Both the position numbers and the translations under genes were made by a program. 64,000 bases of DNA. Origin: Eledone cirrhosa (Eukaryota). Under the pieces are notes generated by a model that was given only the letters and a program-made list of their open reading frames with translations, made no database searches and was not told the origin of the DNA. Every line of letters starts with the position of its first letter. Within the stretch, counting starts at the first letter, position 1. Below, piece after piece: positions 23,258-62,950 of the stretch. The stretch spans positions 98,270,001 to 98,334,000 of the forward strand of contig OZ024744.1 in the NCBI GenBank assembly GCA_964016885.1, written 5' to 3'.

Positions 23258-23647
23258 ACTCAATCCACACTGCAAAGTGGTCATGTAGGTGTCACAACAA
23301 AAGGTGCCCAGTCCACACTGTAAAGTGATCATGTTGGTGACACAACAAAAAGTGCCCACCCCTACAATGTAAAGTGGTCATGTTGGTGACAACAAAAAGT
23401 GCCCTGCTCACACTGTAAAGTGGTTATGTAGGTAATGACAAAAAGTGCACACGCCACACTGTAAAGAGGTTGTGTTGGTGTCATGATTAAAAGCACCCAG
23501 TCCACACTGTAAATGTGGTTGGCATAAGGAAGGGCATCTAGCCTTAGAAACCAAGCCAAAATTTGATCTGACATGTCTCACAATGGGAAACTCATCTAAC
23601 CCATGCTAACATGGAAAAATGGATGTTAAATAGGGATGATGATGATT
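23258..23647 (+). mobile_element. SINE/LINE 3' module with ~5-6 diverged 48-bp units and an RTE-type (GAT)n tail
   Basis: Repeated ccacactgtaaagtgg...aaaagtgccc units, then gtggttggcataaggaagggcatc, then ccatgctaacatggaaaaatggatgttaaa and gatgatgat. Confidence 0.85.
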
Positions 23648-24117
23648 CCTGAAAAAAAAAAATTCCCTTGATTTGTTTTCCTACTCTTAATTCTATTGAA
23701 GTACATTCACAGTGACCTAATCAAACACTATCAGCTAATGAACTACGGACTTTGTGCCATGTCATTTTACCCCTATTTAAAGATATGGTTCTATATTTTA
23801 TATTGTATGGTTATTACATTTAGTGTTCTGGTATCGTTTTAACATTTTGGTGAGGAAAGGTAAACCAGATATGCTCAAATATAAGCCAATCCCACTATTT
23901 TATGTCTGAGAAATGTGTAAAAATCCAAACCTTATTTGATTAGAATTTAAAGTTGGTGAAAATCGTCAAAATATTGACCTCAGTACATTATTTTATCAAC
24001 CCCTGGCAAAGTTGACCTCAGTGAGATTTGAAACGAGAATGATATAATAATTGTTTCTACTTTTGGCACAAGGCCAGCAATTACCCAGTGCATTACTGGT
24101 ACTTTATTGATATAATA

Positions 24118-24415
24118 ATGAAAATTATTGTGTACAGTGCTCAGATGCACTACAAATCCTCAAAGATGCATGTATAGTATATAGAATAATGTACAAATGT
24201 CAGGAAAGTGAACAGTGTATGAGTCATGATATACATGTGTGCGTGTGTATGGAGGGGGAGTATCAGGTGTAGTGTTGGCGAATCTCAGGAAGCATGGACG
24301 TTTTAAAGGATGCAGTGTCTCGGCAGCTAACAACTGATGCAGGTAGTTTGTCCCATGCTTCAGCAACTCTGAGTGTGAAAAATCTGTTTCCGAAAGTCAT
24401 GGGAGCTGTGTTGTT
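24118..24415 (-). mobile_element. CR1-clade LINE 3' fragment
   Basis: Minus strand encodes FFTLRVAEAWDKLPASVVSCRDTASFKTSM, matching the CR1 ORF2 terminal motif FFTxRVxxxWNxLP. A short 3' UTR follows. Confidence 0.75.
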
Positions 24416-24742
24416 TTAAAAAGCTGTAACTAAATACCACAAAACTTTTTGTCCGATGTTCAAATAATTCTGCCAATCTGCCACCCTAACGTACTTTAAT
24501 AATAGAAATGGTTGAATCTCTACAAGACGCTACAATTACTACCTGTTCTGCTACTTTAACTCATGTACCATTTGGAACTGCATTAGTAAGATATTCTTGA
24601 AATTACAAAAATTAAAGCCTTTACTCTAATACTACAAATTTTCAAAACAATCTGTGCACTAGTAAAGATACTATAAACATTTGGATTAACAAACCTGTTT
24701 TTATATATTTTCTGCTACATCATTACAGGATGTTAAGAGATA

Positions 24743-24926
24743 ATTATTTCTACTTTAGGCACAAGGCCAGCAATTACCCAGTGCATTACTGGTACTTTAT
24801 TTTATCGACCCCGTAAGGATGAAAGGCAAAGTCAACCTCGGCGGGATTTGAACTCAGATCGTAAAGGGACGTAACTATGCTGGAAAGCATGGCGTCCGAC
24901 CCTCTACCGATACTGCCAATCCACCG
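24743..24926 (-). mobile_element. tRNA-derived SINE, near full length (gcctttcatccttacggggtcgataaa core family)
   Basis: Near-exact reverse complement of 46088-46280. A-box-like tggcagtatcgg and B-box gagttcaaatcc are present. Confidence 0.9.
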
Positions 24927-25239
24927 TTTTTACACCAATCTCTCTACCAGTAAAGGTACAATAAATATTTGAATTAATAAACCTGTTTTTAGATATTTTC
25001 AACTAAACCATAACAGGGTGTTAAGAGATAATACTGCAAATTCTCACAACAATCTGTCCACCAGTAAAAATACTATAAACATTTGAATTAACAAACCTAT
25101 TTTTAGATATTTTCTCATAAATTATTAAAGGATATTAAGTGTTAAATATCTTCACTGTCAGTAAATTAGTCTCATCTAAATTTACTTTTAGCTTCAGTTA
25201 TTCATATTTCAAACATTTAAATAATTTTAGTTGCATAAA

Positions 25240-26610
25240 AGTGTATGAATCTTAGATGGTTAAACTAGGAGCTAGAGTATTTGATGGTTTACTGTTGTAT
25301 AAAGGGGTATAAACTTTAGATGATCAAACTGGGAGCTAGAGTATTTGATGGTTTACTGTTGTATAAAGGGGTATAAACCTTAGATGATCAAACTGGGAGC
25401 TAGAGTATCTGATGGTTTACTGTTGTATAAAGGGGTGTGAATCTTAGATGATCAAACTGGGAGCTAGAGTATTTGATGGTTTACTGTTGTATAAAGGGGT
25501 ATAAACCTTAGATGATCAAACTGGGAGCTAGAGTATTTGATGGTTTACTGTTGTATAAAGGGGTATAAACCTTAGATGATCAAACTGGGAGCTAGAGTAT
25601 TTGATGGTTTACTGTTGTATAAAGGGGTGTAAACCTTAGATGATCAAACTGGGAGCTAGAGTATCTGATGGTTTACTGTTGTATAAAGGGGTGTGAACCT
25701 TAGATGATCAAACTGGGAGCTAGAGTATTTGATGGTTTACTGTTGTATAAAGGGGTATAAACCTTAGATGATCAAACTGGGAGCTAGAGTATCTGATGGT
25801 TTACTGTTGTATAAAGGGGTATAAACCTTAGATGATCAAACTGGGAGCTAGAGTATTTGATGGTTTACTGTTGTATAAAGGGGTGTGAACCTTAGATGAT
25901 CAAACTGGGAGCTAGAGTATTTGATGGTTTACTGTTGTATAAAGGGGTATAAACCTTAGATGATCAAACTGGGAGCTAGAGTATTTGATGGTTTACTGTT
26001 GTATAAAGGGGTATAAACCTTAGATGATCAAACTGGGAGCTAGAGTATTTGATGGTTTACTGTTGTATAAAGGGGTATAAACCTTAGATGATCAAACTGG
26101 GAGCTAGAGTATCTGATGGTTTACTGTTGTATAAAGGGGTGTGAACCTTAGATGATCAAACTGGGAGCTAGAGTATTTGATGGTTTACTGTTGTATAAAG
26201 GGGTATAAACCTTAGATGATCAAACTGGGAGCTAGAGTATTTGATGGTTTACTGTTGTATAAAGGGGTGTGAACCTTAGATGATCAAACTGGGAGCTAGA
26301 GTATCTGATGGTTTACTGTTGTATAAAGGGGTGTGAACCTTAGATGATCAAACTGGGAGCTAGAGTATTTGATGGTTTACTGTTGTATAAAGGGGTATGA
26401 ACCTTAGATCAAACTTGGAGCTAGAGTATTTGATGGTTTACTGTTGCATAAAGGGGTATGAACCTTAGATCAAACTTGGAGCTAGAGTATTTGATGGTTT
26501 ACTGTTGCATAAAGGGGTATGAACCTTAGATCAAACTTGGAGCTAGAGTATTTGATGGTTTACTGTTGCATAAAGGGGTGTGAACCTTAGATGATCAATC
26601 TTGCAGCTAG
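25240..26610. repeat. 64-bp minisatellite, ~21 copies (three 61-bp variants near the right end)
   Basis: Unit tagatgatcaaactgggagctagagtatttgatggtttactgttgtataaaggggtataaacct recurs at 25381, 25445 and onward. It is followed by a SINE-type tail at 26610-26750. Confidence 0.95.
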
Positions 26611-27359
26611 TTGAGAAGGGTCTCTAGTCATATAAAACCAAGCCAAGAATGGAGCATATGTGCAAGACATGGCCACCTAACCTGTCTAGCCTCAGAACAT
26701 GACAACTGTCTAACCTATGCAAGCATAGAAAATAGATGTTAAATGGTGATATATAAATATATATATATAAAGCAAGACATCCAATAAGCACCTATTAACC
26801 TTACCGTTTCTGGTAGAGTATCTGTTACATTGTTACCCTACCATCTAACACTCTCTCCATGTCACCATTATGACTTTCATTCACACTCATCCCTTCCTCC
26901 ATTGCTCTTCATTAACTATTCTCATCATCACTGTAGCCCACCCACCTCTACTCTTTCAAACATTACATTTGCTATACCTGTCATATATCCATGACACCCT
27001 GCTTGTCATCTACCACAACTTCCTCCTCCTATTCTTAGGACAACCCCTTCACACCACCCCTACCATATGTATGCCACTATTAAATACACTCCATAATAGG
27101 GGTGACTACTGGTAGCAATGTCAGAGTAGAATAGTTCTTGAATAATCTTCCTTCCTCCCTTGCTTATTAATTTTTCAAATTATTTACTAACCTCCACCCA
27201 CTTATTAAATTTTGCTAATCTATTTCTAGCGAAATTTTATTTTAAGTGGTAATATTCCTGGGACTATTTTATTTATACATTACTAGAAATCCCATATGTT
27301 ATAAAATAAATAGGATGGTTTGGGGTCTCAATATGTAAATTAAACTAAATTCAAATACA

Positions 27360-27505: not shown

Positions 27506-27960
27506 TAAATTCTGGTTTTTTAAAAAAATCAACAGACAACCTAAAAAAATTACCAATTTTTCACCACCACCACCACCACCCTATTATTTGTGACCTGAGA
27601 GTAGTACTTTTCAATCAAGTCAACAACAGATAACCTTCCTAGTACTGCCAGCATGATAAAGTACACCCAATACACCCTGTAAAATGACTGTTGTTAAAGA
27701 AAGGGCATCCAGCAATAAAAATGACACCAAAACCAGAAAACATGTAAGTAGGACATGGCCCCTCGATTCACTTGAGGACGGTAGCACTGACCACCATATA
27801 TACTTAAATATAAACCAAGGAATATGTTACCCCAAAAAATAAAATGGGGTTTGGGGTCAGCTTATATACACCATCTAAACATGTGTTGATTAGCTGCCTT
27901 GACTTATACACAAGATTTGGATTTTTGCCTATTTCTCAGACTTAAAATAGGGTGGGCGAG

Positions 27961-28532
27961 GTCAGAGCACTCAAAGTCGATGGAAGCCTTGGAGTGGGAG
28001 ACCCAAGAAGACCTGGGATGAGGTGATAAAAGCTGACCTTGCTCAATTGCACCACTCAAGGCGATGACACAGGACCGTGACTTCTGACGACACGCACTGA
28101 TAGAGAGGACCCAACTTCCCACAGGTACAAACTGAAGCTGAAGCATATATACAGTATGTCCCCACCTCGTCCCACTGTAAAGTGGGCGTGGAGGTGTCAC
28201 AACAAAAAGCACCCAGTCCACACTGTATTGTGGCCATCTAGGTGTCACAGTAAAAAAAAATCACCCAGTACTCACTGTAAATGAGGTTGGTGTTAGGAAG
28301 GACATCACCCAGTCCATTCTGTAAATGAGGTTGGTGTTAGGAAGGGCATCACCCAGTCCACACTGTAAATGAGGTTGGTGTTAGGAAGGGCATCCAGCTG
28401 TAGAAATCAAGCCAAAACCAGTTCTGTATGAGCAAGACATGGTCACTTGACCTGGCATTTCCCACAACAGGAAAACCCATCTAAACCATGCTAGCGTGGA
28501 AGAATGGACGTAAAACGGTGATGATGATGATT
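27961..28532 (+). mobile_element. RTE 3' end plus module with two 48-bp units, three 44-bp units and a (GAT)n tail
   Basis: Encodes a decayed ...KTWDEVIKADLAQLH.... It is followed by cccactgtaaagtggg...aaaaagcacccagtccacactg, 3x cacccagtccacactgtaaatgaggttggtgttaggaagggcat, and the tail ccatgctagcgtggaagaatggacgtaaaacggtgatgatg. Confidence 0.88.
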
Positions 28533-28672
28533 GAGTAAGTACTGACTTGGCTTGTGACAGCCCACCTAACCCTTGACAACATGGAAGAACATACGTGAAG
28601 TAATGATGATATAGAGAGAGATTAAAAACAAAACTTATTCCAAATAAATGATTACAACAGTAATAAAGAGTA

Positions 28673-28864
28673 TTAACCATTTAGAATTTAAACCGGCCGT
28701 ATCTGCTCACCTCAATCTGTTCAAACCGGCTACTCATACTTATGTTAAGGTATTGTTCTCAAAATAATTATCAAAATCTCATAGATTTGATATTATGTGA
28801 AGTAAAGTGTTTACTGTGAAAATATAATAGTAAATATAGAGTAATGTAAATGCTGAAGGGTTAA
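28673..28864. mobile_element. piggyBac-type MITE (TTAA-flanked)
   Basis: ttaa-ccatttagaattta ... taaatgctgaaggg-ttaa; same family as 33645-33868. Confidence 0.75.
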
Positions 28865-29672
28865 TGTGGTTGGTGATGAGAAGGGTATCTAGCCATAGAG
28901 GACTCAACTGTGTCAATGAAATGACAACCTCCTTAGTGTTGGTGATCTATATAATAAACATGCCCAGTACACTCTGTAGGGTGGCTGGCGATCAGAAAGA
29001 CACCCAGCTATAGAAAATCTGCATCTGCCAAACACAGAATCAGGAGGACTCTACAGCTGTGTCAAAGGCATGACAGCTTCTCTAGTGTTTGTGCCATGAT
29101 GTAAGGCCATTGATAAAGTGCGTAAAAGTACGTAAGGGAAATCGGGGGGGGGGGGGGGGGGGGGCTGGCTCTTCTGAGCACATGGTAAAGTGCAGGATCA
29201 TACGTAAATACGTAAGCAAGATGTTGGTGCCTGGTCTGCATGATGATGATGATGATGATGATATAGAGAGATTAAAATCACAGCAATAGCTCCCCCCCCA
29301 CCCCCACCCCAGAAGCATAAATAGGGAAAATACCACCCCTGCCTATGGACCTAATAATTTATATAAATGGTTTAATGATCCAGCCATCATAGTGTTTCCC
29401 ACCCATGATAATCAGAAACAGATCATATATCTGAAGAAGTTTCTTTTTTCACTCTCCAACAAAAGTTTATCTGACTTTAATGGAAAGTGCTCCTAGTCGA
29501 AGTGGCACCCCTGCTTCAGGTACTATTCATGGCACATACCATGCTTACCATACGCCTCTAATTTATTCCAAATATAAAAACCACTTCTAATAAAATCAGA
29601 AATAATAATAATAACAGTATAAAAAGAAATATTAAAGTTTCTCCAGGACTATCTTATATATTACTGTCACTG

Positions 29673-29840: not shown

Positions 29841-30202
29841 ACCACTAGACCTTCTAGAAATAGTAGTTAAATCTACATTAACAATATAGTTCTGGTTATA
29901 CTAAAATAAACAGTATGGTCATGGTTGGAACGTCTACATGACCACTAGACATAGTCAAATCTCTATTGACAATATAGTCCTGGTTATACTAAAATAAACA
30001 GTATGGTCATGGTTGGAACGTCTACATGACCACTAGACATAGTTAAATCTCCATTGACAATATAGTCCTGGTTATACTAAAATAAACTGTATGGTCATGG
30101 TAGGAACGTCTACATGACCACTAGACATAGTTAAATCTCTATTAATAATTTAGGTATTGTTATACAAAATAAACTGTATAGTCACGGTTGGAACGTCTAC
30201 AT
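29841..30202. repeat. 88-bp tandem repeat, ~4 copies
   Basis: accactagacatag... recurs at 29941, 30029 and 30117. Confidence 0.9.
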
Positions 30203-31870
30203 CACAGGTTCTCAACCCATTTAGGCCTTTTGTCCCTTGAAATCACGAAATGCACCCCCTAACCTATTTTTCCATTTTTCAATATACTACTGATTTTGAT
30301 ATCAGTAGATTACTAAAAAAATTGATTAACAATATTCAGGCAGCTGAGAGTATAAATACATTCCTTGAAAGGAAATATATAAATTTCAAAAAAAAAAGGA
30401 ACATAAATGTTCTTTTTTATGAATAAGGACCAGTTGAATTTGTTATATTCCCAGCAGGCGATACCAGGTATTTTGAACATTTATACAAGAGCAACTCTGT
30501 CTATTCCAAGAGTGCCCTTATCTGGAAGAAAGTGGCAATTATATCATTTCAAAGCTTTCCAATTTTCCCTTTAATGAAATGGACAGAATAAATGTTGATA
30601 TCTAACTTGATGTCCCCTCTGCTTTGTGAGCTTAGAGACCACGGAAGAGGGTTTTCATGACCACGCGGGAGGGTATATTTATTAGTAAATGGTAAAATAT
30701 ATACAACAAATGAGTTAGTGAATTGTAGTAGATGGTTTCCAGTCCAGTCAGACTGCAAGTACAAATAAAAAAATTGTTAGTTTGCTTTGTAACAATAGCA
30801 TATCCAAGTTTTCGTTTAAATCAACTTACTTTAACTTTGACTCATTTCAATTGGACCCTTGAGCTTCATGGAGTCTAGCTAACTCTTTGACGTGAGGCTG
30901 ATCTTTTTTCGTAAGATGTAGCCAGAGATCCCCACGTGTAATTACATTGTAGCGGTTGCGAGCCTTACTGAGCAGTCTGGAAACAGCACCAAACCTCCTC
31001 TCGACTAAGTATGAGCTTGGAAAAGGCAGAGCAAATCTCTTAGCCTCTGCATGTAGGTGTAGAAATCAACGCTGAATTTCCTCTTGCATCCCAAAAATGG
31101 GTTCACCTATTTTGAGAAATCTAATTTTGATCATGTCATCTGCTTGAAGTTCAATGAATTCTTCCTGAAATTTAACGTCCAAATCGTCGATGTTAGCTAT
31201 GAAAGGATCTATCCACATTGGGATGTCCATCGGCAAAAGGTCAACAAACCGTTCTCATGTTGTCTTGTAGCACACGGAGGTGAGCGGTATAAATTTGGAG
31301 TTGGTCATCGCTTACAATGTTTTGAACATTGGCGACACTAGGAAAATTATAGAATTCCCGTCAACAAAGATTCCTTTCAATGACATTCAATTTGACCAGG
31401 AATGTTTTCACAGCATTCCTTGCTTTAAGCAAGGTGATCTTCTTCCCCTGCAAAGCCAAAATGACACTATTGCATTTGTCGAAGATGTCAGCGAGGTAGT
31501 CTTGCCTCACATCAAGGGTTTCCTTGTACAGTTCTGTGTTGCGTCCTCGCAGAAACTCAATGATAGAGTCAAAGAAGTGAGTAAAGCACTTGCCCTTTGA
31601 AAGCCACCTCACTTCAGTATGAAGGAGCAACTTGATGAATTCTTCGTCATTATCTTGGCACAGTTGCTGGGAAATTCGTTCATTGAGGGAATGCCGTTTG
31701 ATAAAATTGATGACATCAATGGCCACCTGCAAGGACTTGCTCAGCCAAGGACTTTCGCAGCCAAGTGTTGTTGATGAATATGACAATGAACAGCAAATAC
31801 AGATAGATTTTCTCTCTTCAGAAGAGTGATGAAGCTCTTATGTTGGCCGACCATTGCTTCTGCGTCGTCC
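30203..31870 (-). mobile_element. hAT (Buster/Charlie-like) transposon remnant with decayed transposase
   Basis: Minus-strand motifs DDAEAMVG...HCHIHQQHLAAK, LLLHTEVRWLSKG and FPSSYLVERRFGAV...RGDL...HEAQGSN* (stop ~30847). A TIR-like cacaggttctcaac at 30203 is preceded by the 8-bp nnnTAnnn site gtctacat. The 5' half is missing. Confidence 0.88.
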
Positions 31871-32050
31871 GATGTTTATATTACCTGATTATGTGTTGTA
31901 TGTGGTCCTAGATGTTTGTATTACCTCCTTATGTGTTGCATGTGGTCCTAGATGTATGTATTACCTGCTTATGTGTTGTATGTGGTCTTAGATGCGTGTA
32001 TTACCTGCTTATGTGTTGTATGTGGTCCTAGATGTGTGTGCTACCCGCTT
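31871..32050. repeat. 40-bp minisatellite, ~4.5 copies, truncating the hAT transposase
   Basis: gatgtttgtattacctgcttatgtgttgtatgtggtccta at 31871, 31911, 31951 and 31991. Confidence 0.9.
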
Positions 32051-33227
32051 CTGTGTTTTCTTTCTTTTTTTTTTTATTTGTAATATTTATACAATAGGGA
32101 ATAAAATAGATCTACATTCTAACTGGCTGCGCTCAAAGTGTCCTTTGACCCAGATGACTGTGGGTTTTTTCATTTTTAAGATCTCAATTACCGGTTAATG
32201 TCTAGACACGCCTGCACACCAGCGGTCAGACTATAGTTATGCAGTCTGCAAGCTCATTCAAATGCATTCACACTGGCTGTCTCAAAGACATACAAATATG
32301 GCTTATAAAACTTACCAAAGTAAAGAGTCTTCCAGAGCCCCCTCGCCTTATGGCAGCTTCAGAAACAAAAAAAAAAAAAAAAAAATCCGATATGGTAATA
32401 TTATAAAAGTTCAATCAGACGGGAGGATGTTAATCTCTTTGTTAGTGTCTGTGTGTGTTTCGATTAATCTTGAAAACAATCAAGAATTTAATAGGATTTA
32501 GTAAAATAACTGTCAATGTAAAGCTAATGTTTTCAACATATCTTAAGTAAATGTTCTTATATAAAATTATAATGAAAGGTTTCACTCTTGATATGAAACC
32601 ACACCTGGTTCTACAATACAAAACTGTTTTAAATTATTTATATTTATTTAAAACTCATCCATCATAATTCTACGTAAGAACTTTTGTTAAGTTATGTTCC
32701 ATACACCAGCTTAATAATGAGAAAGTTAAGATATATTACTAAATACCTCAAAATCTTTGATTAATTTCTAAATTATAGGGAGTATCTTACACTAGAAATA
32801 CAGTAATGAAAGGTTTAGATTCAGATATGAACACTTTAAAATTGGAAGTTTTATATAATAGATGCAGGATCAGCCTGAAGTAGGTTGATGTCAAAAGGGT
32901 TGATGTAGTAAAACAGGTAATGACCCCCTTCAGTCACAAATGAGATTTGCACCAGCCCAAGCAAGGTGTTTTTGAGGAAGACCCACAGTTGCCCATGCAT
33001 GTCAGTCTCCCGTCTTCATACCACTGATGATGTCCTATCAAAGAAATAGCCATGTCACAAGATATTGGATGTTTCAGAAAAATATCCAAGTCCTTTTAAC
33101 ATCTTGCAATGATCTAGCAAAAAATATCTAAAAATGTATTTGTTAATTCAAATGTTTATACTATCATTACTACTGAACATGTCATTGTGAAAGTTTGCAG
33201 TAAACTAAAGTAAAGAGTTTAATTTTT

Positions 33228-40284: not shown

Positions 40285-40640
40285 TCATGATTTAACGTCC
40301 ATCTTCCCTGCAAGCAAGGGTTTGGTCTTTGAAGATCTTCAGACCTTCATCTCACATACATACATTCCTGTTCTCCACCAGTCTGTTTATCATGGCACCA
40401 GCACTAAGGAAGTTGCTATGCTTTTGACACAGCTGAAGAGTGTTTCCAACCCTTTGTTTGGCAGGTGGATGCCTTCCTATCACCAACCACTTTACAGGGT
40501 GTATTGGGTGTGTTTATTGTGGTACCAACACTACAGAAGTTGCCATATCTTTGACACAACTGAAGTCCTCCTGACCTTTTGTTTGGCAGGTTTTCTACAG
40601 TTTGGTACCTTTCCTATCACCAACCACTTTACAGAGTGTA
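40285..40640 (-). mobile_element. SINE 3' module with internal duplication and RTE-type tail
   Basis: tttaacgtccatcttccctgcaagc tail, then 2x ttcctatcaccaaccactttacag units. Confidence 0.7.
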
Positions 40641-41266
40641 TTAGATTAATTAAAATCAATTTGTAAATATTTATTTCATTCTAACACAGTTTCATGAATT
40701 TATAAATACAAGCCTTCTGCATCTGCAAAACAAATATAGGCAGTATACAACATTGTTAGACAATTAGTTGGCCTGTTTATTCCAGTCATAGGTTATTGTT
40801 ATGATATCTATGGTTCTGAAAGTCTACTAGACTTTATAAGTAATAGTTGGGATTGTTTCATCAGAATATGCCATTAAAAAACACTAATTTTCTGTTGTTA
40901 GATGTGACAAAGCACTGTACGAGGAAGCAAGAGGGTGTGAGTGCCATTCAATTCTGTGTTCAAATCCCATTGATGTCAATTTTGCCTGCCATCCTTCTGG
41001 AGTCAGAGACAGAAGAGGGTTGGAAGAAAGGGAGAGAATTAGCCACAGACAAGAAAAGGCTGTGGTTGAGAATGGAACTGTGTGACATTAATTTAATGTA
41101 ATTAATCAAAATTGCAGCAACCATTAAGAAGGCAGAGGTGATGGTAAAATGGGACAAAATGAAAAACAAACAAATCTAGTCATTAGCTACTTGTGATACA
41201 ACACATCTAAACTATGCCATCATGGAACATGGATGTTAAACGATGATGATGATGATAATAATAATG

Positions 41267-43959: not shown

Positions 43960-44840
43960 CTGGGACAGCAAGCAGCAAACGGCCACAGGAAACAAGTACC
44001 ACCAAACTCTGGGAGGGCTCTGTAGAAACAGTAGACAGCTTCTGCTACCTAGGTGACCGAATTGTTCGGAAAGTACAATAACTAGGGTAAGAATGGGACT
44101 GCCACTGCTAGCTGCAAAAGGCTTTTCCCACAAAATGAAAGGCAGACTGTATGATGCATGTATACGAACAGCAATGTTACATGGAAGTGAGACCTGGGCG
44201 TTGTCTGTAGAAGACTTGCGTAGATTAGAAAGAAAGAGAAGCCTGCATGCTCCGGTGGATGTGTAATAGTAATATATGTGAATGGCAAAGCATAAATGAA
44301 TTGAGAGAGAGACTGAGATTAAGAGGAATCAAATGCTGTGTGCAGGAGAGGCGGTTGCGTTGGTATGGAGATGTGATGCGTATGAAGGATGACTGCTGCA
44401 TAAAAAGGTGCAGAGCACTAGAAGTTGATGGAAACCGCAGAGTGGAGAGACTCAAGAAGACCTGGGATGAGGTGATAACAGCCGATTACAGCTCTCAAAT
44501 CCATGACATACGACCGTGACCTCTGGCGTCATGCAGTAATACAGAAGACCCGACCCCCCCACTGCAAAGTAGTCATGGAGGTGCCTTGGCAAAAAAGGAC
44601 CCAGCCCACACTGTAAAGTGGATGTGTAGGCGCCACGGAAAAAAGCACCCAGCACTCACTGTAAATGAGGTTGGTGTTAGGAAGGGCATCCAGCTGTAGA
44701 AATCAAGCCAGAATCAGTCCCCATATGAGCAAGACAAGGTCAGCCGACCGGACACTGCCCACAACAGGACACCCTGTCTAACCCATACTAGCGTGGAAGA
44801 ACGGACGTAAAACGGTGATGATGATGATGATGATGATGAT
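43960..44840 (+). mobile_element. RTE LINE 3' part plus module with two 48-bp units and (GAT)n tail
   Basis: ETVDSFCYLGD, YDACIRTAMLHGSETW, ERRLRWYGDVMRM and KKTWDEVI. Then ccagcccacactgtaaagtggatgtgtagg...aaaaagcacccagc, gttggtgttaggaagggcatccagctgtagaaa and the tail. Confidence 0.9.
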
Positions 44841-48680: not shown

Positions 48681-51140
48681 ATGACATCCAATTTTGGCAT
48701 AGTTTCTATAGCTAAATGCCCTTTCTTTTACCAACCACTTTACAGTGTATAGTGGGTGCATTTTATTGTAGCACCAATACCAGGAAGGTTGTCATTTGTC
48801 TTTGGCATGACTGATGAGTCCTCACAACCCCCTTTTTGTATGGTTTCTGTAGGTGGTTGCTCTTCTTAACATCAACCACTTTACATAAAGTATTTTTGTG
48901 GCCCAAACACTTGAGAGGTTATCGTGTCATGAATGAACTGAGGAGTTCTCTCTCCCCTATGGTGTAACCAGTTGAATACCAACCACTGCACAAAGTATGC
49001 TGTATGTATTCTATATTGACTCCATCACTAAAGAGACTGCCTGCCATGTTCTAAGGCAGGCATGTTTGAGAGTGAGAATAGAAGGGGAAGAAGAGGGTTA
49101 AGGGGGAACAGAGATGTATAACAAGTGTGGTGGGGTGAAACCAACTGATGTGAATGAACCTATGCAAGCATGGAAAAAGTGACATAAAAATGATGATAAT
49201 GACGATGAAAAAGGAGGAAGTAATGAAAGGATACAATGATAATGAGAATAGCAATAATGAGTAATGTTGGCATAGTCATGGTTGAGTGATTTAGAAGTTC
49301 ACTTCTGAAGTATGTAGTTTCAGGTTTACATCCACTGTATAGCACCTTGGGCATGTATTTTTTTTTTATTACAGCCTCGGGCTGACAATGCTTTGTGAGT
49401 GAGTTTAGTTTAGTAGATCAGAAGAGAAAGCCCATCATTTGTATGTGTGTGAGTGTATATGACTTTGCACCAGGAAGGACATCCAGTCTTAGAAATTTGC
49501 CATGGACAAAGCATAATAAAGCAGGTTGCTGGACTGACTATGAATTGGCCAAAATGTTATATCCCACCACTATATGGTTACATCACATAGGATACAATAA
49601 ATAGGTGTGGGGGAGGAGAAAATATAGGGACATTGGGAGAGATTATTTCATTGTGCACCTGTCATATGAAGTTTAGCCACGATCCCACTACACCTCTTGT
49701 ACATCCACTGTACACATTGGGTACATTGTATGTCGTTTTAAATAATAATTATTGTTATTAATAATCCCCTTCTTTATGATTGAAAAGCAAGGCTTTGGCA
49801 AATCAATGCTGTTCAGACAATCCTTAGCAACTTCCTCTGTGCTTTGTCCCATGTAATATGTATTTTCTCTCAGCTCACCTTCAACTGTCCTACACCAGGT
49901 GTTCTTTGGTCATCCAAGCTTTCATTTTCAGCAGGTGATGTCCACCTTAATGCTACGTTTGGTATTCTCAGTATCTGACCTGGTCACATGAGTCACCAAT
50001 ATTGTATTTCAAGGACCACTGCACTATTACAACCAGTTTTGAGGCACAGCTCCTCATTTGACACTTCATCAGGTCCAGAAGATCTGACAGGTTTTCCTCA
50101 GACACCCACTGTGAAATGCCTGACCTAGTCACAATAGCCACCAATATTTTATTTCAAGTCCACATTATTACAGCCAGTTTTGTGGTACATCTCATTTGAC
50201 ACTTCATAAGTCCAGAAGATCTGACAGGTTTTCCTCAGACACCCCTTGTGAAATGTCTGACCTAGTCACATGAGCCACCAATATTTTATTTCAAGGATCA
50301 CAAAATACATGGTACATTGTAAATGCTGTATGTAAAGTGGAGGTGTGACTTATACAATCTATAAAATATGCATAAATGTATAACAAAACTGGTGCTATTG
50401 GTGACTGTAGGGTAAATGTATGGTAGACAGAATATAAAAGGGGAGGAAGAAGTTTTGTTGACAGTGAAGGGTAGAATATAGAAAGCATATGTAAAGAGTG
50501 TGACACTGATGGGTGGTGAGACACGAGAACAATGTGAAGGTTGTAGAGGAATGAGTTGGGTCTGATGTCATTGCAAAGGCCAAAATACAAATGAAATAAG
50601 AAAGCAGATGTTTATTAACTCTTTCATTAACATATTTCTAATGAAAAACCTCTACCAATGATTTTTCAAACTATCATCATTTAATGTTCACTTTCCTTGC
50701 TAGCAAGGATTGGATGGGTCTTAAAAGACCATGTGAGTATCGAGGTGGGTCTACTGAGTGCTCAGACACACCATGGCTACTAACCTTCTAGTCATTTGAA
50801 AATAAAGAATTTGGAGAGATTTAGTAATATAACTAAATTTCTAATTATTAAGCTGGTGTTTGAATCAAAGGTTCTTACATAAAATTATGATGGAAGGTTT
50901 TTAAATAAATATAAACACTTTAAAATAAAGATGCTGGCGTGTGAAAAAAAAAAATGGACTTTTTTGCAAGGCCAACTGGCCTGTCCCTTCACATAATGGT
51001 GCCATCCAGTTATACACTGTAAATGTGGTTGGCATCCAACTGTAAAAATCTTGGCTAAATTTACAGCCCCATCTGAACAAGGTACAGCATGGCCAATTCT
51101 GGCCAGACTTGTCTAACCCATGGAAAATGGACGTTAAACA

Positions 51141-51180
<40 letters not shown>

Positions 51181-54654: not shown

Positions 54655-54920
54655 ATGCTGACCAAACTCGACCCTGATGTCTCCATGAAGAACATCCCGA
54701 TCCCTTCAAGGAAACTTTACCTATAAACACTCATCAGACGTACAGACGAGTTCACCAAGCGAATTAGATGGAGAGCCTTCTTCCTCGACAATCCTGACGT
54801 AGCATCTACCAATGATGAGAAGTTTGGTTTCAAAACGAATAAGGCACCACCCACCAACAGCCTACTTGAACCATTTGAGGAAGACCTCTTCAAGATGATC
54901 AAGGATATCAAATTTCGTAG
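54655..54920 (+). mobile_element. Penelope-like element ORF N-terminus (decayed, 3'-truncated)
   Basis: MLTKLDPDVSMKNIPIPSRKLYL*TLIRRTDEFTKRIRWRAFF...FGFKTNKAPP...LEPFEEDLFKMIKDIKFR matches the SMKNIP..KRMRWKAFF..GFK..PP..FE.DL pattern of Penelope-like RTs. It lies 130 bp downstream of the hammerhead. Confidence 0.78.
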
Positions 54921-54924
54921 AGTC

Positions 54925-55840
54925 GTGTAGGTGTCACGACAAAAAAAACACACAGTCCACGCTGTAATGTGGCCGTGTAGGCAACACGGTAAAAACCTCC
55001 CAGTCCCACACTGTAAATGTGGTTGGTGTTAGGAAGGGCATCCAGCTGTAGAAAACCCGCCAGACAGTCCACGCTGTAATGTGGCCGTGTAGGCAACACG
55101 GTAAAAACCTCCCAGTTCCACACTGTAAATGTGGTTGGTGTTAGGAAGGGCATCCAGCTGTAGAAAACCCGCCAGACAGTCCACGCTGTAATGTGGCCAT
55201 GTAGGTAACACGGTAAAAACCTCCCAGTTCCACACTGTAAATGTGGTTGGTGTTAGGAAGGGCATCCAGCTGTAGAAAACCCGCCACACAGTCCACGCTG
55301 TAATGTGGCCGTGTAGGTAACACGGTAAAAACCTCCCAGTTCCACACTGTAAATGTGGTTGGTGTTAGGAAGGGCATCCAGCTGTAGAAAACCCGCCAGA
55401 CAGTCCACGCTGTAATGTGGCCGTGTAGGTAACACGGTAAAAACCTCCCAGTTCCACACTGTAAATGTGGTTGGTGTTAGGAAGGGCATCCAGCTGTAGA
55501 AAACCCGCCAGACAGTCCACGCTGCAATGTGGCCGTGTAGGTAACACGGTAAAAACCTCCCAGTTCCACACTGTAAATGTGGTTGGTGTTAGGAAGGGCA
55601 TCCAGCCGTAGAAAACCCGCCAGACAGTCCACACTGTAATGTGGCCGTGTAGGTAACACGGTAAAAACCTCCCAGCCCCACACTGTAAATGTGGTTGGTG
55701 TTAGGAAGGGCATCCAGCCGTAGAAAACCCGCCAGACAGTCCTATGCGAGCAAGACAACCACTCTTGCCTCAAGTGGGAAAACTCCCGTCCAAACCCATG
55801 CAAGCGTGGAATATGGACGTTAAACGATGATGATGATGAT
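54925..55840 (+). repeat. 112-bp tandem array (7 copies) inside a SINE 3' module, ending in the RTE-type (GAT)n tail
   Basis: gttaggaagggcatccag at 55028, 55140 ... 55700. The unit contains ccacactgtaaatgtgg. Tail: ccatgcaagcgtggaatatggacgttaaacgatgatg. Confidence 0.95.
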
Positions 55841-56819: not shown

Positions 56820-58000
56820 ATGGAGGGGACAGAAAGCACTACCAGATAGCAAGAAGGGAGGCCAGGCATCAAGTATATCTAGCAAGGGGAGAGGCAGAAA
56901 AGAAGAAGTTTGCACATGGTCTGCTTTGAGAAGTGTTCAGGCTTGCAAGACATTATGCTAGAGAAAATCATGATGTGAGTGGAGAAAAATATGTCTGAAA
57001 TGATAGCGTAGCACTTACTCGTCTGATGATGAAAAGAAATAGGCATGGAAGACCTATGAGAAACTGAGGAAAATGAATGGGACAGCAGTATAATAGATAA
57101 AGCAATTAAAGACATGAAGGTAGGGAAAGCAGCTGGACCATCCAGAATAGACACTGAGATGCTAACAGCATCTGGCATGGTAGGATATGAGCTAGTCAGA
57201 TGCATAGTTAATCAAGTAGTACAGGATAGTGTCATACCCAATGACTGGTATAGCAGTTTCGTTGTAAATTACCACAAGGGCAAAAGAGGTGCACTACAGA
57301 GAAGTAACTACAGAGGTATCAAGTTGATGGACCAGGTAATGAAAGTTGCCAAAAGAGTTATAGCACAACTAATTAGGGACAGAATCAAATTAGATGAGAT
57401 GCAGTTTGGATTTATTCCAGGCAGGGGTACTACTGATGCCCTCTTTCTGGCAAGACAACTACAGGACAGGTATTTAGCTAAGAGTGAGTTACTGTACCTA
57501 ACATTTGTAGATCTGGAGAAAGCCTTTGACAGGGTCCCATGCTCTATTATCTGGTGGGCACTTAGGAAGCTAGGTGTAGATGAAGGACGTGTGAGGGCCT
57601 TGCAAGTCATGTATAATGGTGCAACCAGCAAAGTGAGAGTTGGAAATGAGTACAGTGATGAATTTGAAGTGTAGGCGGAGGTCCACCAGGGATCAGTCCT
57701 CAGTCTACTTCTGTTTATCATTGTACCTCAGGCCATCCCAAGGAGTTTAAAACTGGTGCTCCATGGGAGCTCCTTTAATGATGACCTCATAGCTGAGTCT
57801 GTAGGAGAATTAGAAGCAAAATTTCAATCATGGAAGAAGAACCTAGAGCTAAATGGCTTAGAGCTAAAAGTAAATTTAACAAAGATGAAAGTCTTAAGTC
57901 GGAAAGAAAACAAGAAAGTGCCTTTGCTTGTCCGAAAGGGCTGGGTAGAAATTCCATAGGGTGCACATAATGTAAAGTATGGATACACATCATCTTGCAA
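56820..58000 (+). mobile_element. RTE-clade reverse transcriptase fragment (pseudogenised)
   Basis: GKAAGP, IPNDW, NYRGIKL, QFGFIPGRGTTDA, FVDLEKAFDRVP and HQGSVLS, with stops and frameshifts. Confidence 0.93.
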
Positions 58001-58689
58001 CATCCTAATTAGAACATTTAATGGTATTGCTCTCACCAGAGGATTTCTGAAAGCCATTGGTACAAAAATTTTTAAAACTAAACATTTTTTAAATCTGAAA
58101 ATTATTCACAGTAGAAAAGACACTGAATTTTAACTGGGGTCTGACCAACCACTTCCTCTTTGCACCGGTCTCCGTTGAGACCTCTGGTGTCCTTGGTCCC
58201 CACACTGCTGATTTCCTCTGTAAAGTCAGATGGATTGTTATTGAGTTTTACCCCATGTCAGCCCTGATTAAAAAGACAAACTCTTTCTTTTTCCAAGATA
58301 TCATCATCATCATTTTACATTCATTTTCCTTGTGAATATGGGTTGGATGGTCTGAGACAAGACATGATCAGATAACCACATTTGTTCATACATTCCATAC
58401 TTTTGTATAGTTCGTACAACTACAGGACAGGTATTTAGCTAGCATTTGTAGATCTGGAGAAAGCCTTTGACAGGGTCCCATGTGGGTGTCCTCCACAACA
58501 CCAACCACATTTACAGAGTGTACTTGGTGTATTTTATTTCCCACCACATTTAGTGTTGTCATGCCTGTAATGGTATCTGAGTGAGTTACTGTTTCTTCAC
58601 AATCCTAATTCCTTCCTTTTCAAAGCTGGCCAGAGGATTTAACAGATTTGGCTGTTGTGTCTAGCAGATAACATATAGTTACATCCCCT

Positions 58690-59025
58690 TATGTTCTGAG
58701 TTCAAATCCCACCAAGGTTAGCTTTGTCTTTCACCCTTACAAGGTTGTAAAAATGAAGTACCAGTAATGCACTTGAGTCAATTTAATCAACTTTACCCTC
58801 TCCCCAAATTGCTGGCCTTGAGCCTAAATCAGAAACCCTTATTAGTATCGGTAGAGGATTGGACGCCATGCTTTCTAGCATAGAGTTACACCCCTTTGCA
58901 GTCTGCATTCAAATGCTGCCGAGGTTAACTTTGCCTTTCATCCTTACGGGGGTCGATAAAATAAAGTACCAGTAATGCACTGGGGTAATTGCTGGCCTTG
59001 TGCCAAAAGTAGAAACAATTATTAT
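58690..59025 (+). mobile_element. Two tandem tRNA-SINE copies (same family as 46088)
   Basis: Two gttcaaat/ttcaaat B-box plus ctttg(t/c)ctttca..cctt...gtaccagtaatgcac cores. Confidence 0.82.
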
Positions 59026-59711
59026 TCTTTTTAATATTTCATCGTCATCATCACCACCATTTAACATCCATTTTTCCATGCTGGCATGGGTTAGACAAGT
59101 TATCCTGTAGTAAGCAATGCCAGGTCAAGCGACCATGTCCTTTTTAATATTTCATCATCATCATCATAATCACAATTTAATGTCCATTTTCCCACGTTGA
59201 CATGGGTTAGACCAGTTATCCTATAGTAAGCAATGCCAGGTCAGGTGACCATGTCTTGCTTATGTCTATAATAAAATCGTTTCACTTTTTTAAACATAAT
59301 ATTATAGCTTCATTTTTTTTATGTCCACTTCTCCTGTTGCCAACAAGAATCAGAATCCAATAGTGGGTAAACTAACAGGTTGTTCTATAAACACAGAAAA
59401 GGGATCCCACATTATTTCCCAAAGTTGATTAAGATATTTATTTCAAATTACTCCATTTAGATATTATGAAAGATATTCATATATTAGACATCATTCATTA
59501 AACTTAAACATTTGCTTTTGCTTTTGTTTTTCAGTTTTGCTGGCAACATCTTTGCTAATATGAAGTGGAGCAATGCCAGCCACCAGGTAAAGATTAATTT
59601 TTTTATTGATTATTAATGAAGAGATTTGGGAGATAACAGATTGCTGGTTTTATGGAGTTTATGAAGTGAGGTTAGTATGCCAAGATAAAATGTTCTGGCC
59701 CAGAAAGAAGA

Positions 59712-60240
59712 CATCATCATCACCATTTAACATCTATTTTTCCATGCTTGCACAGGTTAGATGGCTGTCACATGCTAAGGCCAAGTCAGTTAGGTGACCA
59801 TATCCTGCCCATACACGTTGTTTTAGCTTGATTTCTATGGCTGGGTGTTCTTCCTAACACTAAGCATGTAGTAGGAGCATGGTTTTCAAAGCTGGATACC
59901 CCTTTTAATGTCAACCACTTTACAGCGTGTACTGAGAACATGGTTTCTAAGGCTGAATGCCCTTCCCAACACCAACCACTTTATAGCATGTACTAGAAGT
60001 CTGGTTTCTATGGCTGGATGCCCTTCCTAATACCAACCACCTTACAGCATGTACTAGGAGCACTGTTTCTATGGCTGGATGCCCTTCCTAATACCAACCA
60101 CTTTACAGCATGTGCTGAAAGCATGGTTTCTAAAGTTGGATGCCCTTCCTAATACCAACCGCTGTACAGTGTGTACTAGGAACATAGTTTCTATGGCTGA
60201 ATGCTCATCCTAACACCAACCACTTTATAGCATGTACTGA
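59712..60240 (-). repeat. SINE 3' module with a 61-bp tandem array (~6 copies)
   Basis: Tail catcatcatcaccatttaacatc...ccatgcttgc, then ggtttctatggctggatgcccttcctaataccaaccactttacagcatgtactaggagcat repeated with period 61. Confidence 0.88.
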
Positions 60241-60471
60241 GAATATTTTATCGTGACTCCAGCACTACAAACTTACAGGGTGAACTGGGTGCTTATCATG
60301 GCAGCAACCCTACAACCGCTCAAGGTGGACGGGATGTTTTTGTAGTGGCTCCAGCTTTCAAAGCCAATGTGCTATTTGACTACCATGGCTAGTCACCAAC
60401 AATAGTTTTTAAATGATCACAGCTTAAAACAGTCATAGTAAGATTTATATCTTTGTTAATCATATGCAACC

Positions 60472-60503
<32 letters not shown>

Positions 60504-60989
60504 CTCTACTTGGAATTAGTAATACAATACAATCAACTTAAAAAATTAAAACCACCACCATCATCATGTTTTCCTTTAACCATCCATACGAGCAGAGTAT
60601 ATTACATTTTAATAAGTGTATATATGTTTGTGATAGAGTGTTTATTCTATAGCAATCATAGAAAGAAGCACTACTACACCATACAGGATATTTTTTATCG
60701 AACCTCATCATCATCACCATCTAATCAAAAATCAGTTACATAGTATCCAAAAGGAGATGCAAGGAGACATTACTCAGTTATTTTATTTCAAATTACTCAA
60801 ATATATTTGTAGGATAAAATTACATAAAATAATAAAAGAATTTAAAATTTCGTCAAACATACAGAAAAAAATAGCAGTATTGGAAAGGACTATACATACC
60901 ATAAATGAGAGGAAAAGTAGGGTACAGAGCAAGGACTATTAAGCAAAGGAAGAAAGAAAGGGGGAAGGGGAGAGGGTGACAGACTCTAC

Positions 60990-61160
60990 ACCCAAGTCAG
61001 AGCAGTGTTTCAGTTGCGCCCTGCAGACAATATGATGGCAATGGCATTTCCGTGGACAATGGCCAGCGACACCCACCTCCACTTCGTGGGGCTCCTTCCT
61101 CAGATAGGTTGCTTGTCATTCCAATTTTACAGAGGAGGTCAGTGGGTGTTGAATTGATTC
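60990..61160 (-). mobile_element. Possible CRE-like (restriction-like endonuclease) non-LTR retrotransposon C-terminus
   Basis: With frameshifts it reads DLLCKIG.QATYLRKEPHEVE/WVSLAIVHGNAIAIILSAGRN*, resembling the ...EPRE..L.QR.S.A..RGNA terminal motif. Confidence 0.45.
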
Positions 61161-62199
61161 CTTCCTAACTTTTTGTCTATCATTCTTTCTATTTCTATTT
61201 TGATTACATACTGCCCCATGTTTCATGAATGCTAATACAAACTCAATAAGCTTTTGTAACATTTTCTATGCCAGCTAAGAAGAATACAGAATTTTTTCAT
61301 TCCATATAAATTTTTTGTTTTTTCAAATGTACTAAAAATGTACAAAAAAAAAAAAAAAAATGTACAGAATAAAGAATTTTTCATGACAAAACATTATTTC
61401 AGCTACAGGTGGATGTTTATGCTTTCAATATCATATCTTGGAAGCCATATTTGATCCATACAAACACATGTCAGTTTCTCTGTATACAAAACATGTATAC
61501 AGACTTTAACCCACTCTTTCTGTTTGTGAATGGAATGTGGAGTGACATGCCTGCTTTTCTACAAAAGGATGGTAGGTACAAACAACTTTTCTGCCTCCCT
61601 CTTAATAAGAAATAATTATTATTTGTCCCCTAAAAAATTTAAAGAAAATACTGGGTAACTTGCATCCCTCTTTTATTTCACATTACAGAAACAAAGACAA
61701 TGTTATGTCCATTTATCATTAGACCCTTGTCCCCCACCAGCAAGGGTTCCTTCTGATAATCAAGATGAAGCAGAGCAGTGGTAAGACTTTATTTAGTTCT
61801 GGCAACCAAACAGCCTCTCTAAATAAAATGTAACCAGTCCATGCTGTAAAACAGGAGTCTCAAGCACATGACCGACAAACTACTTTTCAATGGCCTGCAG
61901 CATAACGATTTTCGTGATTAAGGAACATTTGAATTAGAAAATTTGACTCCCCTACATTTTGTACTAATTCACATATCCTACTTACTATCATATGTATATT
62001 GTACTAATTCACATATCCTACTTACTATCATATGTATATTTATTTTGATAAAAAAAAAAAAAAAAAGAAAAATAGAAATAACATCCAGCAGTAAAAACCA
62101 TGATAAAAAAGAAAAAAAAAAAGGAAGATAGAGAGATGTGAACTCTAGACACAATAAGTACACATCATTCATCTAGAAGATCAGTAACTAAATAAACTA

Positions 62200-62950
62200 T
62201 AGAAAGCTTGCCAAATAAAGGGTCGGGAGGACCCTTTCAGGACATGATAACCTCTCTAGTGATGGTGATCTACACAATAAACACATCCAGTACATGATGT
62301 AAAGTGGTTGGTGATAGGAAGGGCATCCAGCTGCAGATACTTGCTAAACAAAGGGTTGGGAGGACCCTTCAGTTGTGTCAAGGGCATGACAACCTTCCAA
62401 ATGCTGGTGATCTACACAATAAAAGCACCCAGTATATGTAGAGTGGTTGGTGATAGGAAGGGTATCCAGCTGCAAAAGCTTGCTAAACAAAGGGTTGTAT
62501 CAATAACATGACACCCTCCCTAGAGTTGGTGATCTACATAATAAAAGCACCAGTATATGTTGTAAAGTGGTTGGTGTTAGGAGGGGCATCCAGTCATAGA
62601 AAGCTTGCTAAACAAAGGGTTGGGAGGACCCTTCAGTTGTGGCAAGGGCGTGACAACCTTCCAACTGCTGCTGATCTACACAATAAAGGCACCAAGTATA
62701 TGTAGAGAGAGTGGTTGGTGATAGGAAGGGTATCCAGCTGTAGATTGTGGGTCGTGTCAGAGATATGACAACCTCTCTAGTGCTGGTGTCATGATAAAAT
62801 GGACTCAATAGAACGTGGAACTGTATATAAACAAGATTCGAACCCATCCAGCCTGTCTGTTAGGTCAGTGCTCTCTCTTCAGTACTGACTTGGTCTGTGA
62901 AGACCCATCCAGCCCTTGCTAGCAGCGATAGTGGATATTAAATGATGTTG
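62200..62950 (+). repeat. SINE 3' module with ~125-138-bp diverged tandem units (~4.5 copies) and tail
   Basis: aaagggtt/c at 62217, 62351, 62489 and 62614. Each unit contains aaagcacccag...gtggttggtgataggaagggcatccag. Confidence 0.82.

What the first reader, a model, noticed from the sequence alone, without database searches (positions are those of the whole stretch)
23258..62950. One retroelement 3' module acts as a tandem-repeat factory with many unit sizes
Seen: arrays overlapping the same aaagcacccag..cactgtaaagtggttggtgttaggaagggcatccag segment have periods of 48 (1-22435; 23258-23510), 44 (28262-28395), 112 (54925-55740), 61 (59820-60240) and ~130 bp (62200-62800). Wherever the 3' side is visible, they lie just upstream of the RTE-type tail. 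Inference: independent amplifications with different breakpoints imply an intrinsic mechanism, such as RT slippage or template jumping during target-primed reverse transcription, or hairpin-promoted replication slippage.
Basis: partly seen in the sequence, partly recalled or inferred. Interest (0 to 1): 0.75.

Follow-up and report, generated by a model that had tools for sequence, protein, structure and literature searches.

The report
Retrotransposon tail seeds many tandem repeats
In what is likely an octopus genome, one short piece near the end of a jumping gene is repeated head-to-tail in five unit sizes, from two copies up to a block of over 22 kb that is still joined to the gene's remains; short repeats were likely spread by the jumping gene and then likely grown in place by ordinary DNA duplication, which is a known route to satellite DNA.

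Summary
All six arrays are real and all draw on one ~90-bp module in the 3' UTR of an RTE-like LINE and its non-coding derivatives; 10 of 16 module loci in the window are tandem. They are not six independent amplifications. The 48-bp unit sits at five loci and the ~137-bp unit at four, and a 61-type junction also occurs in a related organism, so these were likely spread ready-made. The 22-kb block is that 48-bp UTR repeat grown to at least 470 copies, still attached to the LINE ORF end, with 4-5 kb internal duplications at 99.8% identity. Smaller arrays show nested shared variants. Both point to stepwise DNA-level growth rather than one slippage event during reverse transcription. DNA hairpins are no stronger than in shuffles. 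Eleven unrelated arrays lie in the same 41 kb. Enrichment in the module is about 6-fold (P about 0.001) but fades to P 0.04-0.15 once family-level units are left out. This is a good new example of retrotransposon-derived satellites (squamate sSats, Ogre 3'-UTR satellites). The scan noted a 48-bp RTE-tail satellite before, elsewhere in this genome.

The parts
1..22420 (-). 48-bp satellite, at least 470 units, open at the window start; the expanded 3'-UTR repeat of the adjoining LINE copy; holds block duplications at shifts 4061, 5248 and 9309 bp
   Evidence: 289 full 48-bp monomers are on average 7% from the array majority and 10.7% from each other
22510..23007 (-). 3' end of an RTE-like LINE ORF (165 codons stop to stop), upstream of the 48-bp satellite in element orientation
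   Evidence: 43% identity over 98% of its length to 1070-1093 aa endonuclease-RT-PHD proteins, 58-59% to two shorter ones
23255..23650 (+). 48-bp x5.4 array, then module and RTE-type tail
27960..28530 (+). LINE ORF end (27962-28095), 48-bp x2.4 (28163-28281), 44-bp x3.1 (28260-28394), tail with (TGA)n
28862..29110 (+). two units of the ~137-bp family
40386..40644 (-). two units of the ~137-bp family, followed by a tail
44020..44830 (+). unexpanded sibling LINE 3' end: ORF end, 48-bp x2.3 (44556-44665), module core (44624-44711), tail, (TGA)n; used as reference
48695..49030 (-). two to three decayed units of the ~137-bp family
54923..55840 (+). 5'-truncated copy with 112-bp x7.1 array (one 48-type unit plus module core per unit), 7-bp direct repeat ACAGTCC at the unit border, tail
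59712..60312 (-). 61-bp x6.2 array (59863-60243), tail at 59717-59813; a weak 45-bp pair lies upstream
62160..62950 (+). ~137-bp family array of about 4 units with alternating unit types, distant tail variant
26610..26750 (+). truncated single module plus tail, abutting an unrelated 64-bp array
27640..27760 (+). single module copy, not tandem
51004..51178 (+). single, partly deleted module plus tail, not tandem
58481..58538 (-). single module fragment, not tandem (two weaker fragments lie at 49471-49498 and 61796-61850)

Best explanation
The arrays are all built from one ~90-bp segment in the 3' UTR of an RTE-like LINE and its non-coding derivatives; a few founding duplications were likely fixed in source elements and spread by retrotransposition as 2-3-unit seeds, and single copies then likely grew in place by repeated DNA-level duplication (unequal exchange or replication slippage). 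Shown: shared module; 48-bp units right behind the ORF end at three LINE copies and at two truncated copies; ~137-bp units at four loci; stepwise growth (kb-scale block duplications, nested variants). Inferred: that seeds travelled inside the RNA, that growth was at the DNA level, and that founding breakpoints were helped by short internal direct repeats (7 bp exact at the 112-bp border, 3 bp at the 44- and 61-bp borders; weak two-half self-similarity of the module). The 44- and 112-bp units are likely local events; this is untested outside the window.
For: Same 48-type unit at 0-22k, 23k, 28k, 44k and inside the 112-bp unit, directly after the ORF end in the three copies that keep ORF sequence. 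~137-bp unit at 4 loci on both strands; an internal-unit insertion is shared by the 28.9k and 62k loci and a terminal-unit ending by the 29k, 40k and 62k loci. In the 22-kb array, 6124-11435 recurs 9309 bp on and 10736-14985 recurs 4061 bp on, at 99.8-99.9% identity against about 89% between random monomers. Shared variants exceed a star-tree null: 139-bp units 2+4 share 5 changes (26 of 5000 permutations), 61-bp units 1+5 share 4 (125 of 5000), 112-bp array 3 shared patterns (97 of 5000). 112-bp units differ by 1.8% in the core against 9% to the nearest other locus. In reads, all 6 go-back joints among the 15 listed (of 512) lie in 44592-44702 and none in the 530-bp ORF part; 48-bp go-backs are in 3 of 4 runs, and a 60-bp junction with 21 of 25 letters like the 61-bp array's (my comparison by eye) is in organism B at contig depth 373 against 18-53 for its other listed contigs.
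Against: The 44-bp units differ from each other (7.8%) as much as from the sibling locus at 44k (7.3%) and share no minority variants, which fits creation at insertion equally well. The 48-bp array at 23k does not beat the null (298 of 5000). The tree of nine ~137-bp units has no starred fork. Nested variants show several steps but not where they happened: some could have occurred in the source lineage. Module self-similarity is borderline (50 of 1000 shuffles), and 3-bp border repeats are within chance; non-module arrays show border repeats of 2-12 bp too. The joint list is a best-supported subset, and run X1 may be the source of the assembly. The 99.9% blocks could in part be an assembly artefact.
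Confidence: 0.65

Rival explanations
1. Reverse-transcriptase slippage or template jumping at this segment during target-primed reverse transcription makes the duplications, each at insertion; a weaker form has it make only the founding two-unit seeds.
For: Go-back joints concentrate in ~110 bp just upstream of the tail, with implied periods of 45, 47, 48, 53, 60, 61 and 74 bp among the listed rows. The 44-bp array is star-like and as old as its locus by core divergence. A weak 8-pair RNA stem is kept across 10 copies with one-sided changes. The tail itself is duplicated at 59027-59255.
Against: Multi-step variant patterns in 3 of 4 small arrays tested; kb-scale duplications and 22 kb length; 48- and ~137-bp units recur with the same borders at unlinked loci; the RNA stem has 0 of 8 pairs with compensatory changes.
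Confidence: 0.15
2. Nothing is special about the module: it is very abundant in a genome region where any sequence duplicates readily, and its arrays stand out because a few old duplications were multiplied by transposition.
For: 11 arrays of period 30 or more unrelated to the module in 41.6 kb; another repeat family (element E) overlaps arrays in 5 of 6 hits; with 48-, ~137- and 61-bp units left out as family-level, 2 of 13 arrays against 0.70 expected, P 0.15; the module bin has the highest summed contig depth in all three contig runs; the control SINE has two head-to-tail neighbour pairs among 11 hits.
Against: 5 of 16 against 0.86 (P 0.001), or 3 of 14 against 0.74 (P 0.035); none of 11 hits of the control SINE, 4 of element B, 3 of element D, 1 of SINE C or 4 ORF fragments overlaps a TRF array; no go-back joint in ORF or tail among those listed.
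Confidence: 0.15
3. A DNA hairpin in the module stalls replication and promotes slippage.
For: Small 4-6 bp stems can be drawn in several copies.
Against: z-scores from -0.73 to +1.58 for 8 of 8 module copies and -1.24 to +0.98 for 7 of 7 array pieces; no common fold.
Confidence: 0.04

Closest known systems
SINE-derived satellites (sSat) of squamate reptiles, Vassetzky et al. 2023, PMC10702118 (parts 1, 3 and 4 of 5 read)
   Same: Tandem units cut from part of a dispersed retroelement, several unit variants per family (70-290 nt), a terminal unit that runs on into the element's end, short loci heterogeneous and long loci uniform, alternating di- and trimer patterns, unequal recombination proposed.
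   Different: Here the parent is shown to include a protein-coding LINE 3' end, units are as short as 44-48 bp, seeds appear to be carried by the mobile element itself, and the host is a mollusc (likely octopod).
Satellites from 3'-UTR repeats of autonomous retrotransposons: PisTR-A from Ogre in pea, common cetacean satellite from L1, chicken HinfI from CR1, HeT-A derived satellite (as summarised in the review PMC9659126; passages and table seen; primary papers not read)
   Same: A short array resident in the 3' UTR of a dispersed element is amplified and homogenised into a long array.
   Different: Non-LTR, RTE-like parent; several unit sizes from one segment; the long array is still attached to its parent ORF within one window.
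TE-derived minisatellites in human (7276 loci, 2663 from Alu, as cited in PMC9659126; passage seen) and the SVA VNTR (recalled, no call)
   Same: Locus-specific minisatellites arising inside abundant retroelements; a tandem repeat carried inside a mobile RNA.
   Different: Here one copy reached satellite size (over 22 kb).
Tandem-like SINE arrays in bivalves, PMC11481361 (passages seen)
   Same: Mollusc SINEs in direct arrays of up to 15 units, attributed to unequal recombination.
   Different: Those are mostly whole-element multimers; these units are internal pieces.
RTE-2_OV of Octopus vulgaris, PMC9115989 (passages seen)
   Same: Single ORF of about 1100 aa with endonuclease, RT and a zinc finger, like the full-length relatives P0003 and P0004; repeat-rich 3' UTR.
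   Different: Its 3' UTR is described as microsatellite; no sequence comparison was possible, so identity with this family is untested.

Membership tests
RTE-clade LINE | single ORF with apurinic endonuclease and reverse transcriptase | tested here: met
   Only ORF fragments are in the window; full-length relatives P0003 and P0004 (43% identity, E 1e-33 to 1e-29) are 1070-1093 aa with Exo_endo_phos, RVT_1 and PHD (the endonuclease hit of P0004 is below the Pfam cut-off)
RTE-clade LINE | 3' end in a short tandem repeat rather than poly(A) | tested here: met
   (TGA)n at 44816-44840 and GAT repeats at the other tails
RTE-clade LINE | placement in the RTE clade on an RT tree | not tested
   no named reference RTs were on hand; the RTE label rests on architecture and on recalled C-terminal motifs
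SINE-derived satellite (sSat) | unit is a part of the element, shorter than it | tested here: met
   44-139 bp units all map to one profile
SINE-derived satellite (sSat) | terminal unit continues into the element's end | tested here: met
   tails follow the arrays at 23k, 28k, 55k, 60k; the 22-kb array continues into the ORF on its 5' side
SINE-derived satellite (sSat) | at least four middle monomers | tested here: met
   met by the 22-kb, 112-bp and 61-bp arrays; not by the 44-bp, ~137-bp and short 48-bp arrays
SINE-derived satellite (sSat) | parent is a tRNA-headed SINE | tested here: inconclusive
   three loci are LINE ends; the others are truncated; Rfam gave 0 matches at gathering score in 22400-64000
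SINE-derived satellite (sSat) | subtelomeric location of long arrays | not testable with these tools
   no whole genome held
Satellite from a retrotransposon 3'-UTR repeat (Ogre/PisTR-A type) | unit present as a short array in the 3' UTR of dispersed copies | tested here: met
   2.3-2.4 units behind the ORF end at 28k and 44k
Satellite from a retrotransposon 3'-UTR repeat (Ogre/PisTR-A type) | same unit amplified and homogenised in a long array | tested here: met
   at least 470 units with an array-specific variant of the unit, 7% from majority
Ceph-domain or bipartite RTE-derived SINE (PMC5786205, parts 1-3 of 5 read) | middle part derived from an RTE 5' UTR | tested here: inconclusive
   exact text search for a 9- and a 12-letter module motif found nothing in the one supplement held; figure alignments cannot be searched; here the module lies 3' of the ORF

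The most novel reading that the evidence does not exclude
The module is a true cis-acting duplication hotspot: an old, weakly two-part segment just upstream of the RT recognition tail at which reverse transcription or repair re-primes, so that an RTE-like family keeps minting new unit sizes and scatters them genome-wide as seeds, one of which becomes a multi-locus 48-bp satellite. Octopod genomes would then show the whole path from a two-unit seed to a satellite with kb-scale higher-order repeats, with the parent LINE still attached, and the birth rate of satellites could be measured per retroelement base.
Probability: 0.2. Interest if true: 0.55.

Novelty: new member of a known kind. Interest (0 to 1): 0.3.

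Why it matters
Birth of satellite DNA from mobile elements is established, but cases with seed, intermediate and satellite-size arrays of one unit side by side, the largest still joined to its parent ORF, are handy test material for the library model of satellite origin. I found no paper describing this octopod repeat: searches for octopus+satellite+SINE+RTE, octopus+satellite DNA+tandem repeats+transposable elements, satellite+RTE+UTR and a module motif gave nothing on it by title or abstract start, and a 2026 Octopus vulgaris repeat annotation has no occurrence of 'satellite' as a word start in its main text (its supplementary repeat library was not seen and may hold the family). No function is suggested by anything here. 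It matters mostly for repeat annotation and for satellite evolution; it would matter more if the module proved to be a mechanistic hotspot.

Tried and rejected
No whole genome is held, so the genome-wide TRF test could not be run. A 28-letter module pattern found 0 matches in viral, metagenome and prokaryote collections, so no outside loci with flanks were available. Earlier findings by sequence and by nearby place: nothing. No RNA holder listed; not used as evidence. DNA hairpin model rejected. Conserved RNA structure: one 8-pair stem, no compensatory change; not taken as evidence. Cryptic-dimer idea: borderline only (50 of 1000). Tree of nine ~137-bp units (two of the eleven aligned pieces, the truncated L62u0 and the decayed L48u1, left out): unresolved. 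Long ORFs over the arrays are by-products of stop-free repeats. Pfam found nothing on the 165-aa ORF end itself; the Atlas hit (0.96, endonuclease-RT family) had a recognition value under the tool's bar. Identification of the module as a Meta or Ceph domain was not achieved (one MetaSINE supplement could not be searched). A search for papers on VNTR growth after insertion returned 0. Whether the 112- and 44-bp junctions recur at other loci remains open. The weak 45-bp pair at 60248-60339 and TRF rows under about 75% match were left out of the enrichment count.
Full report
Observation. A profile built from 11 module copies hits all of them. Profile and BLAST searches together give 16 module loci in the window, two of them weak fragments; 10 of the 16 hold two or more module pieces in tandem. 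The 22-kb and 61-bp arrays are on the minus strand. The 48-bp unit covers only the 5' half of the quoted segment.

What the module is. On the minus strand the 22-kb array is preceded by a 165-codon ORF end (22510-23007) whose longer relatives are single-ORF endonuclease-RT-PHD proteins of 1070-1093 aa. The copy at 44020-44830 is an unexpanded sibling: ORF end, 2.3 units of 48 bp, module core, about 110 bp of tail, (TGA)n; the copy at 27960-28530 has the same order. The module is therefore part of the 3' UTR of an RTE-like LINE. The clade label rests on architecture and recalled motifs; no tree was made. In contig runs the module bin has the highest summed depth, and hundreds of contigs leave the reference on either side of the core, so many non-coding families share it (depth is not a copy number). 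The host is likely an octopod: one relative is an Octopus bimaculoides protein (57% over 42% of the query), and earlier notes on this genome say the same; run labels are coded.

The arrays are not independent. 48-type units stand at five loci (22-kb array, 23k, 28k, 44k, and inside each 112-bp unit), directly behind the ORF end in the three copies that keep ORF sequence; a fourth ORF fragment at 51.5k ends before the UTR. The ~137-bp unit is at four loci on both strands (28.9k, 40.4k, 48.7k, 62.2k), with an insertion shared by internal units at 28.9k and 62k and a terminal ending shared by three loci. In reads laid on 44020-44815, go-back joints that add up to 48 bp are in 3 of 4 runs, a return of the core onto itself is in 4 of 4 runs (10, 5 and 7 contigs; 10 read starts), and organism B has a 60-bp junction that matches the 61-bp array's junction in 21 of 25 letters by eye, at contig depth 373 against 18-53 for its other listed contigs. 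So at least two and probably three of the five unit sizes are family-level or old. Only the 44- and 112-bp units are single-locus within the window; outside it this is untested.

How they grew. One slippage event at insertion predicts identical units that later gather private changes. The 22-kb array instead holds 4.2-5.3 kb blocks repeated at 99.8-99.9% identity while random monomers are about 89% alike. In the small arrays, units 2+4 of the 139-bp array share 5 changes, units 1+5 of the 61-bp array share 4, and the 112-bp array has three shared patterns, two of them in adjacent units. Against a permutation null these give 26, 125 and 97 of 5000; the 48-bp array at 23k gives 298 of 5000 and is not significant. 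The 112-bp units differ by 1.8% in the core against 9% to the nearest other locus. The 44-bp array is the exception: three units, no shared minority variants, 7.8% apart against 7.3% to its sibling locus, so it could date from insertion. Several steps do not prove that all steps were at the present locus, but 22 kb cannot have arrived as one ordinary LINE insertion (established knowledge: relatives encode about 1100 aa, a 3-4 kb element).

Why this segment. The 112-bp unit is bounded by an exact 7-bp direct repeat (chance about 6e-4), the 44- and 61-bp units by 3 bp (within chance); non-module arrays show 2-12 bp. The module's two halves resemble each other weakly (score 21 against 14.8 +/- 3.2; 50 of 1000 shuffles), at a spacing that would give 44-48 bp units; this is a lead only. 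DNA folding is unremarkable in 15 of 15 folds. An 8-pair RNA stem is predicted across 10 copies with no compensatory change.

Is it enriched? Of 16 distinct arrays with period 30 or more in 22.4-64 kb (counting each module junction type once), 5 involve the module against 0.86 expected (P about 0.001); without the 48- and ~137-bp types 3 of 14 against 0.74 (P 0.035); without the 61-bp type too 2 of 13 against 0.70 (P 0.15). The window was picked for this pattern, so these values flatter it. No TRF array overlaps 11 hits of a control SINE, 4 of element B, 3 of element D, 1 of SINE C or 4 ORF fragments, but the control SINE has two head-to-tail neighbour pairs, and element E overlaps arrays in 5 of 6 hits. 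In reads, 6 of the 15 listed joints (of 512) go back, all within 44592-44702, and 8 of the 12 listed rows with inserted letters (of 376) go back within 44592-44704, with implied periods 45-74 bp; none lies in the ORF part or the tail. These lists are the best-supported rows only, the reference itself has 2.3 units there, and X1 may be the source sample. The module is thus probably a modest hotspot in a region where tandem duplication is common anyway; earlier unchecked notes describe giant minisatellites from non-mobile sequence and from other LINE parts in this genome.

Mechanism, committed. Most likely (0.65): a few founding duplications in source elements, spread as 2-3-unit seeds by retrotransposition, then stepwise DNA-level growth at single loci, up to satellite size. 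Rivals: RT slippage or template jumping at insertion (0.15), no module specificity (0.15), hairpin slippage (0.04).

Comparison with what is known. It works like the SINE-derived satellites of squamates (PMC10702118, parts 1, 3, 4 of 5 read): several unit sizes from one family, terminal unit running into the element end, alternating monomers, unequal recombination proposed. It meets the two defining features of satellites born from 3'-UTR repeats of autonomous retrotransposons (Ogre/PisTR-A, L1/cetacean, CR1/chicken; review PMC9659126, passages). It is not filed as an sSat proper because the parent shown is a LINE end. Bivalve SINE arrays are a mollusc precedent (PMC11481361, passages). Of the octopus papers I saw passages of PMC9115989 and PMC12988792, part 1 of 3 plus passages of PMC13282606, and passages of PMC4758252 and PMC4824008; none of these passages describes this repeat, but repeat libraries in supplements and Repbase were not seen. 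The scan itself noted a 30-kb 48-bp array traced to an RTE 3' UTR 4.8 Mb away (e1-9585604); if that note holds, the 48-bp seed reached satellite size at least twice. That note also gave me the Ogre lead, which I checked only in the review.

Verdict. Observation confirmed, interpretation partly supported. New member of a known kind; interest 0.3. The bold reading, a true cis-acting hotspot that keeps minting unit sizes, has probability about 0.2 and would merit 0.55.

Noticed in passing
window 35666-36283, minus strand: Intact single-exon small GTPase ORF of about 205 aa (Pfam Ras E 4e-55); Rab9-like by recalled motifs.
   Followed up: partly
window 25230-26750: A young 64-bp x21.7 array (96% matches) ends exactly where a truncated module and tail begin; the unit itself did not match the module.
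   Followed up: partly
window 24560-25141, 33093-33483, 63732-64000: A second repeat family (element E) is also tandem-prone, with 114-, 85- and 138-bp arrays over its copies.
   Followed up: partly
window 6124-20600: Block duplications of 4.2-5.3 kb at 99.8-99.9% identity inside the 48-bp satellite (shifts 4061 and 9309): very recent expansion or assembly artefact.
   Followed up: partly
window 59027-59255: The RTE-type tail alone is duplicated head-to-tail (116 bp, 86%); a second, different tail also follows the first at about 28540-28610.
   Followed up: no
window 54700-54922: The 112-bp locus is joined at its 5' end to a coding fragment that resembles a Penelope-like element (recalled motif, untested).
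   Followed up: no
window 41820-42900 minus; 52870-53897; 31361-31837 minus; 57060-57960: Decayed mobile elements: a zf-RVT LINE fragment, a DDE_3 (Tc1/mariner-like) transposase, a hAT-like fragment (recalled), and an RVT_1 fragment.
   Followed up: partly
window 46085-46445 and 58670-59015: Two head-to-tail neighbour pairs of the control SINE, the partners of unlike quality.
   Followed up: no
window 29864-30202, 31871-32057, 36662-36818, 49975-50295, 61959-62040: Further minisatellites (88, 40, 72, 137, 40 bp) unrelated to the module.
   Followed up: no
window 44484-44654 (reads): A contig of run X1 at depth 140 skips 169 bp from the ORF end to the module: an internally deleted variant of the family without the 48-bp units.
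   Followed up: no
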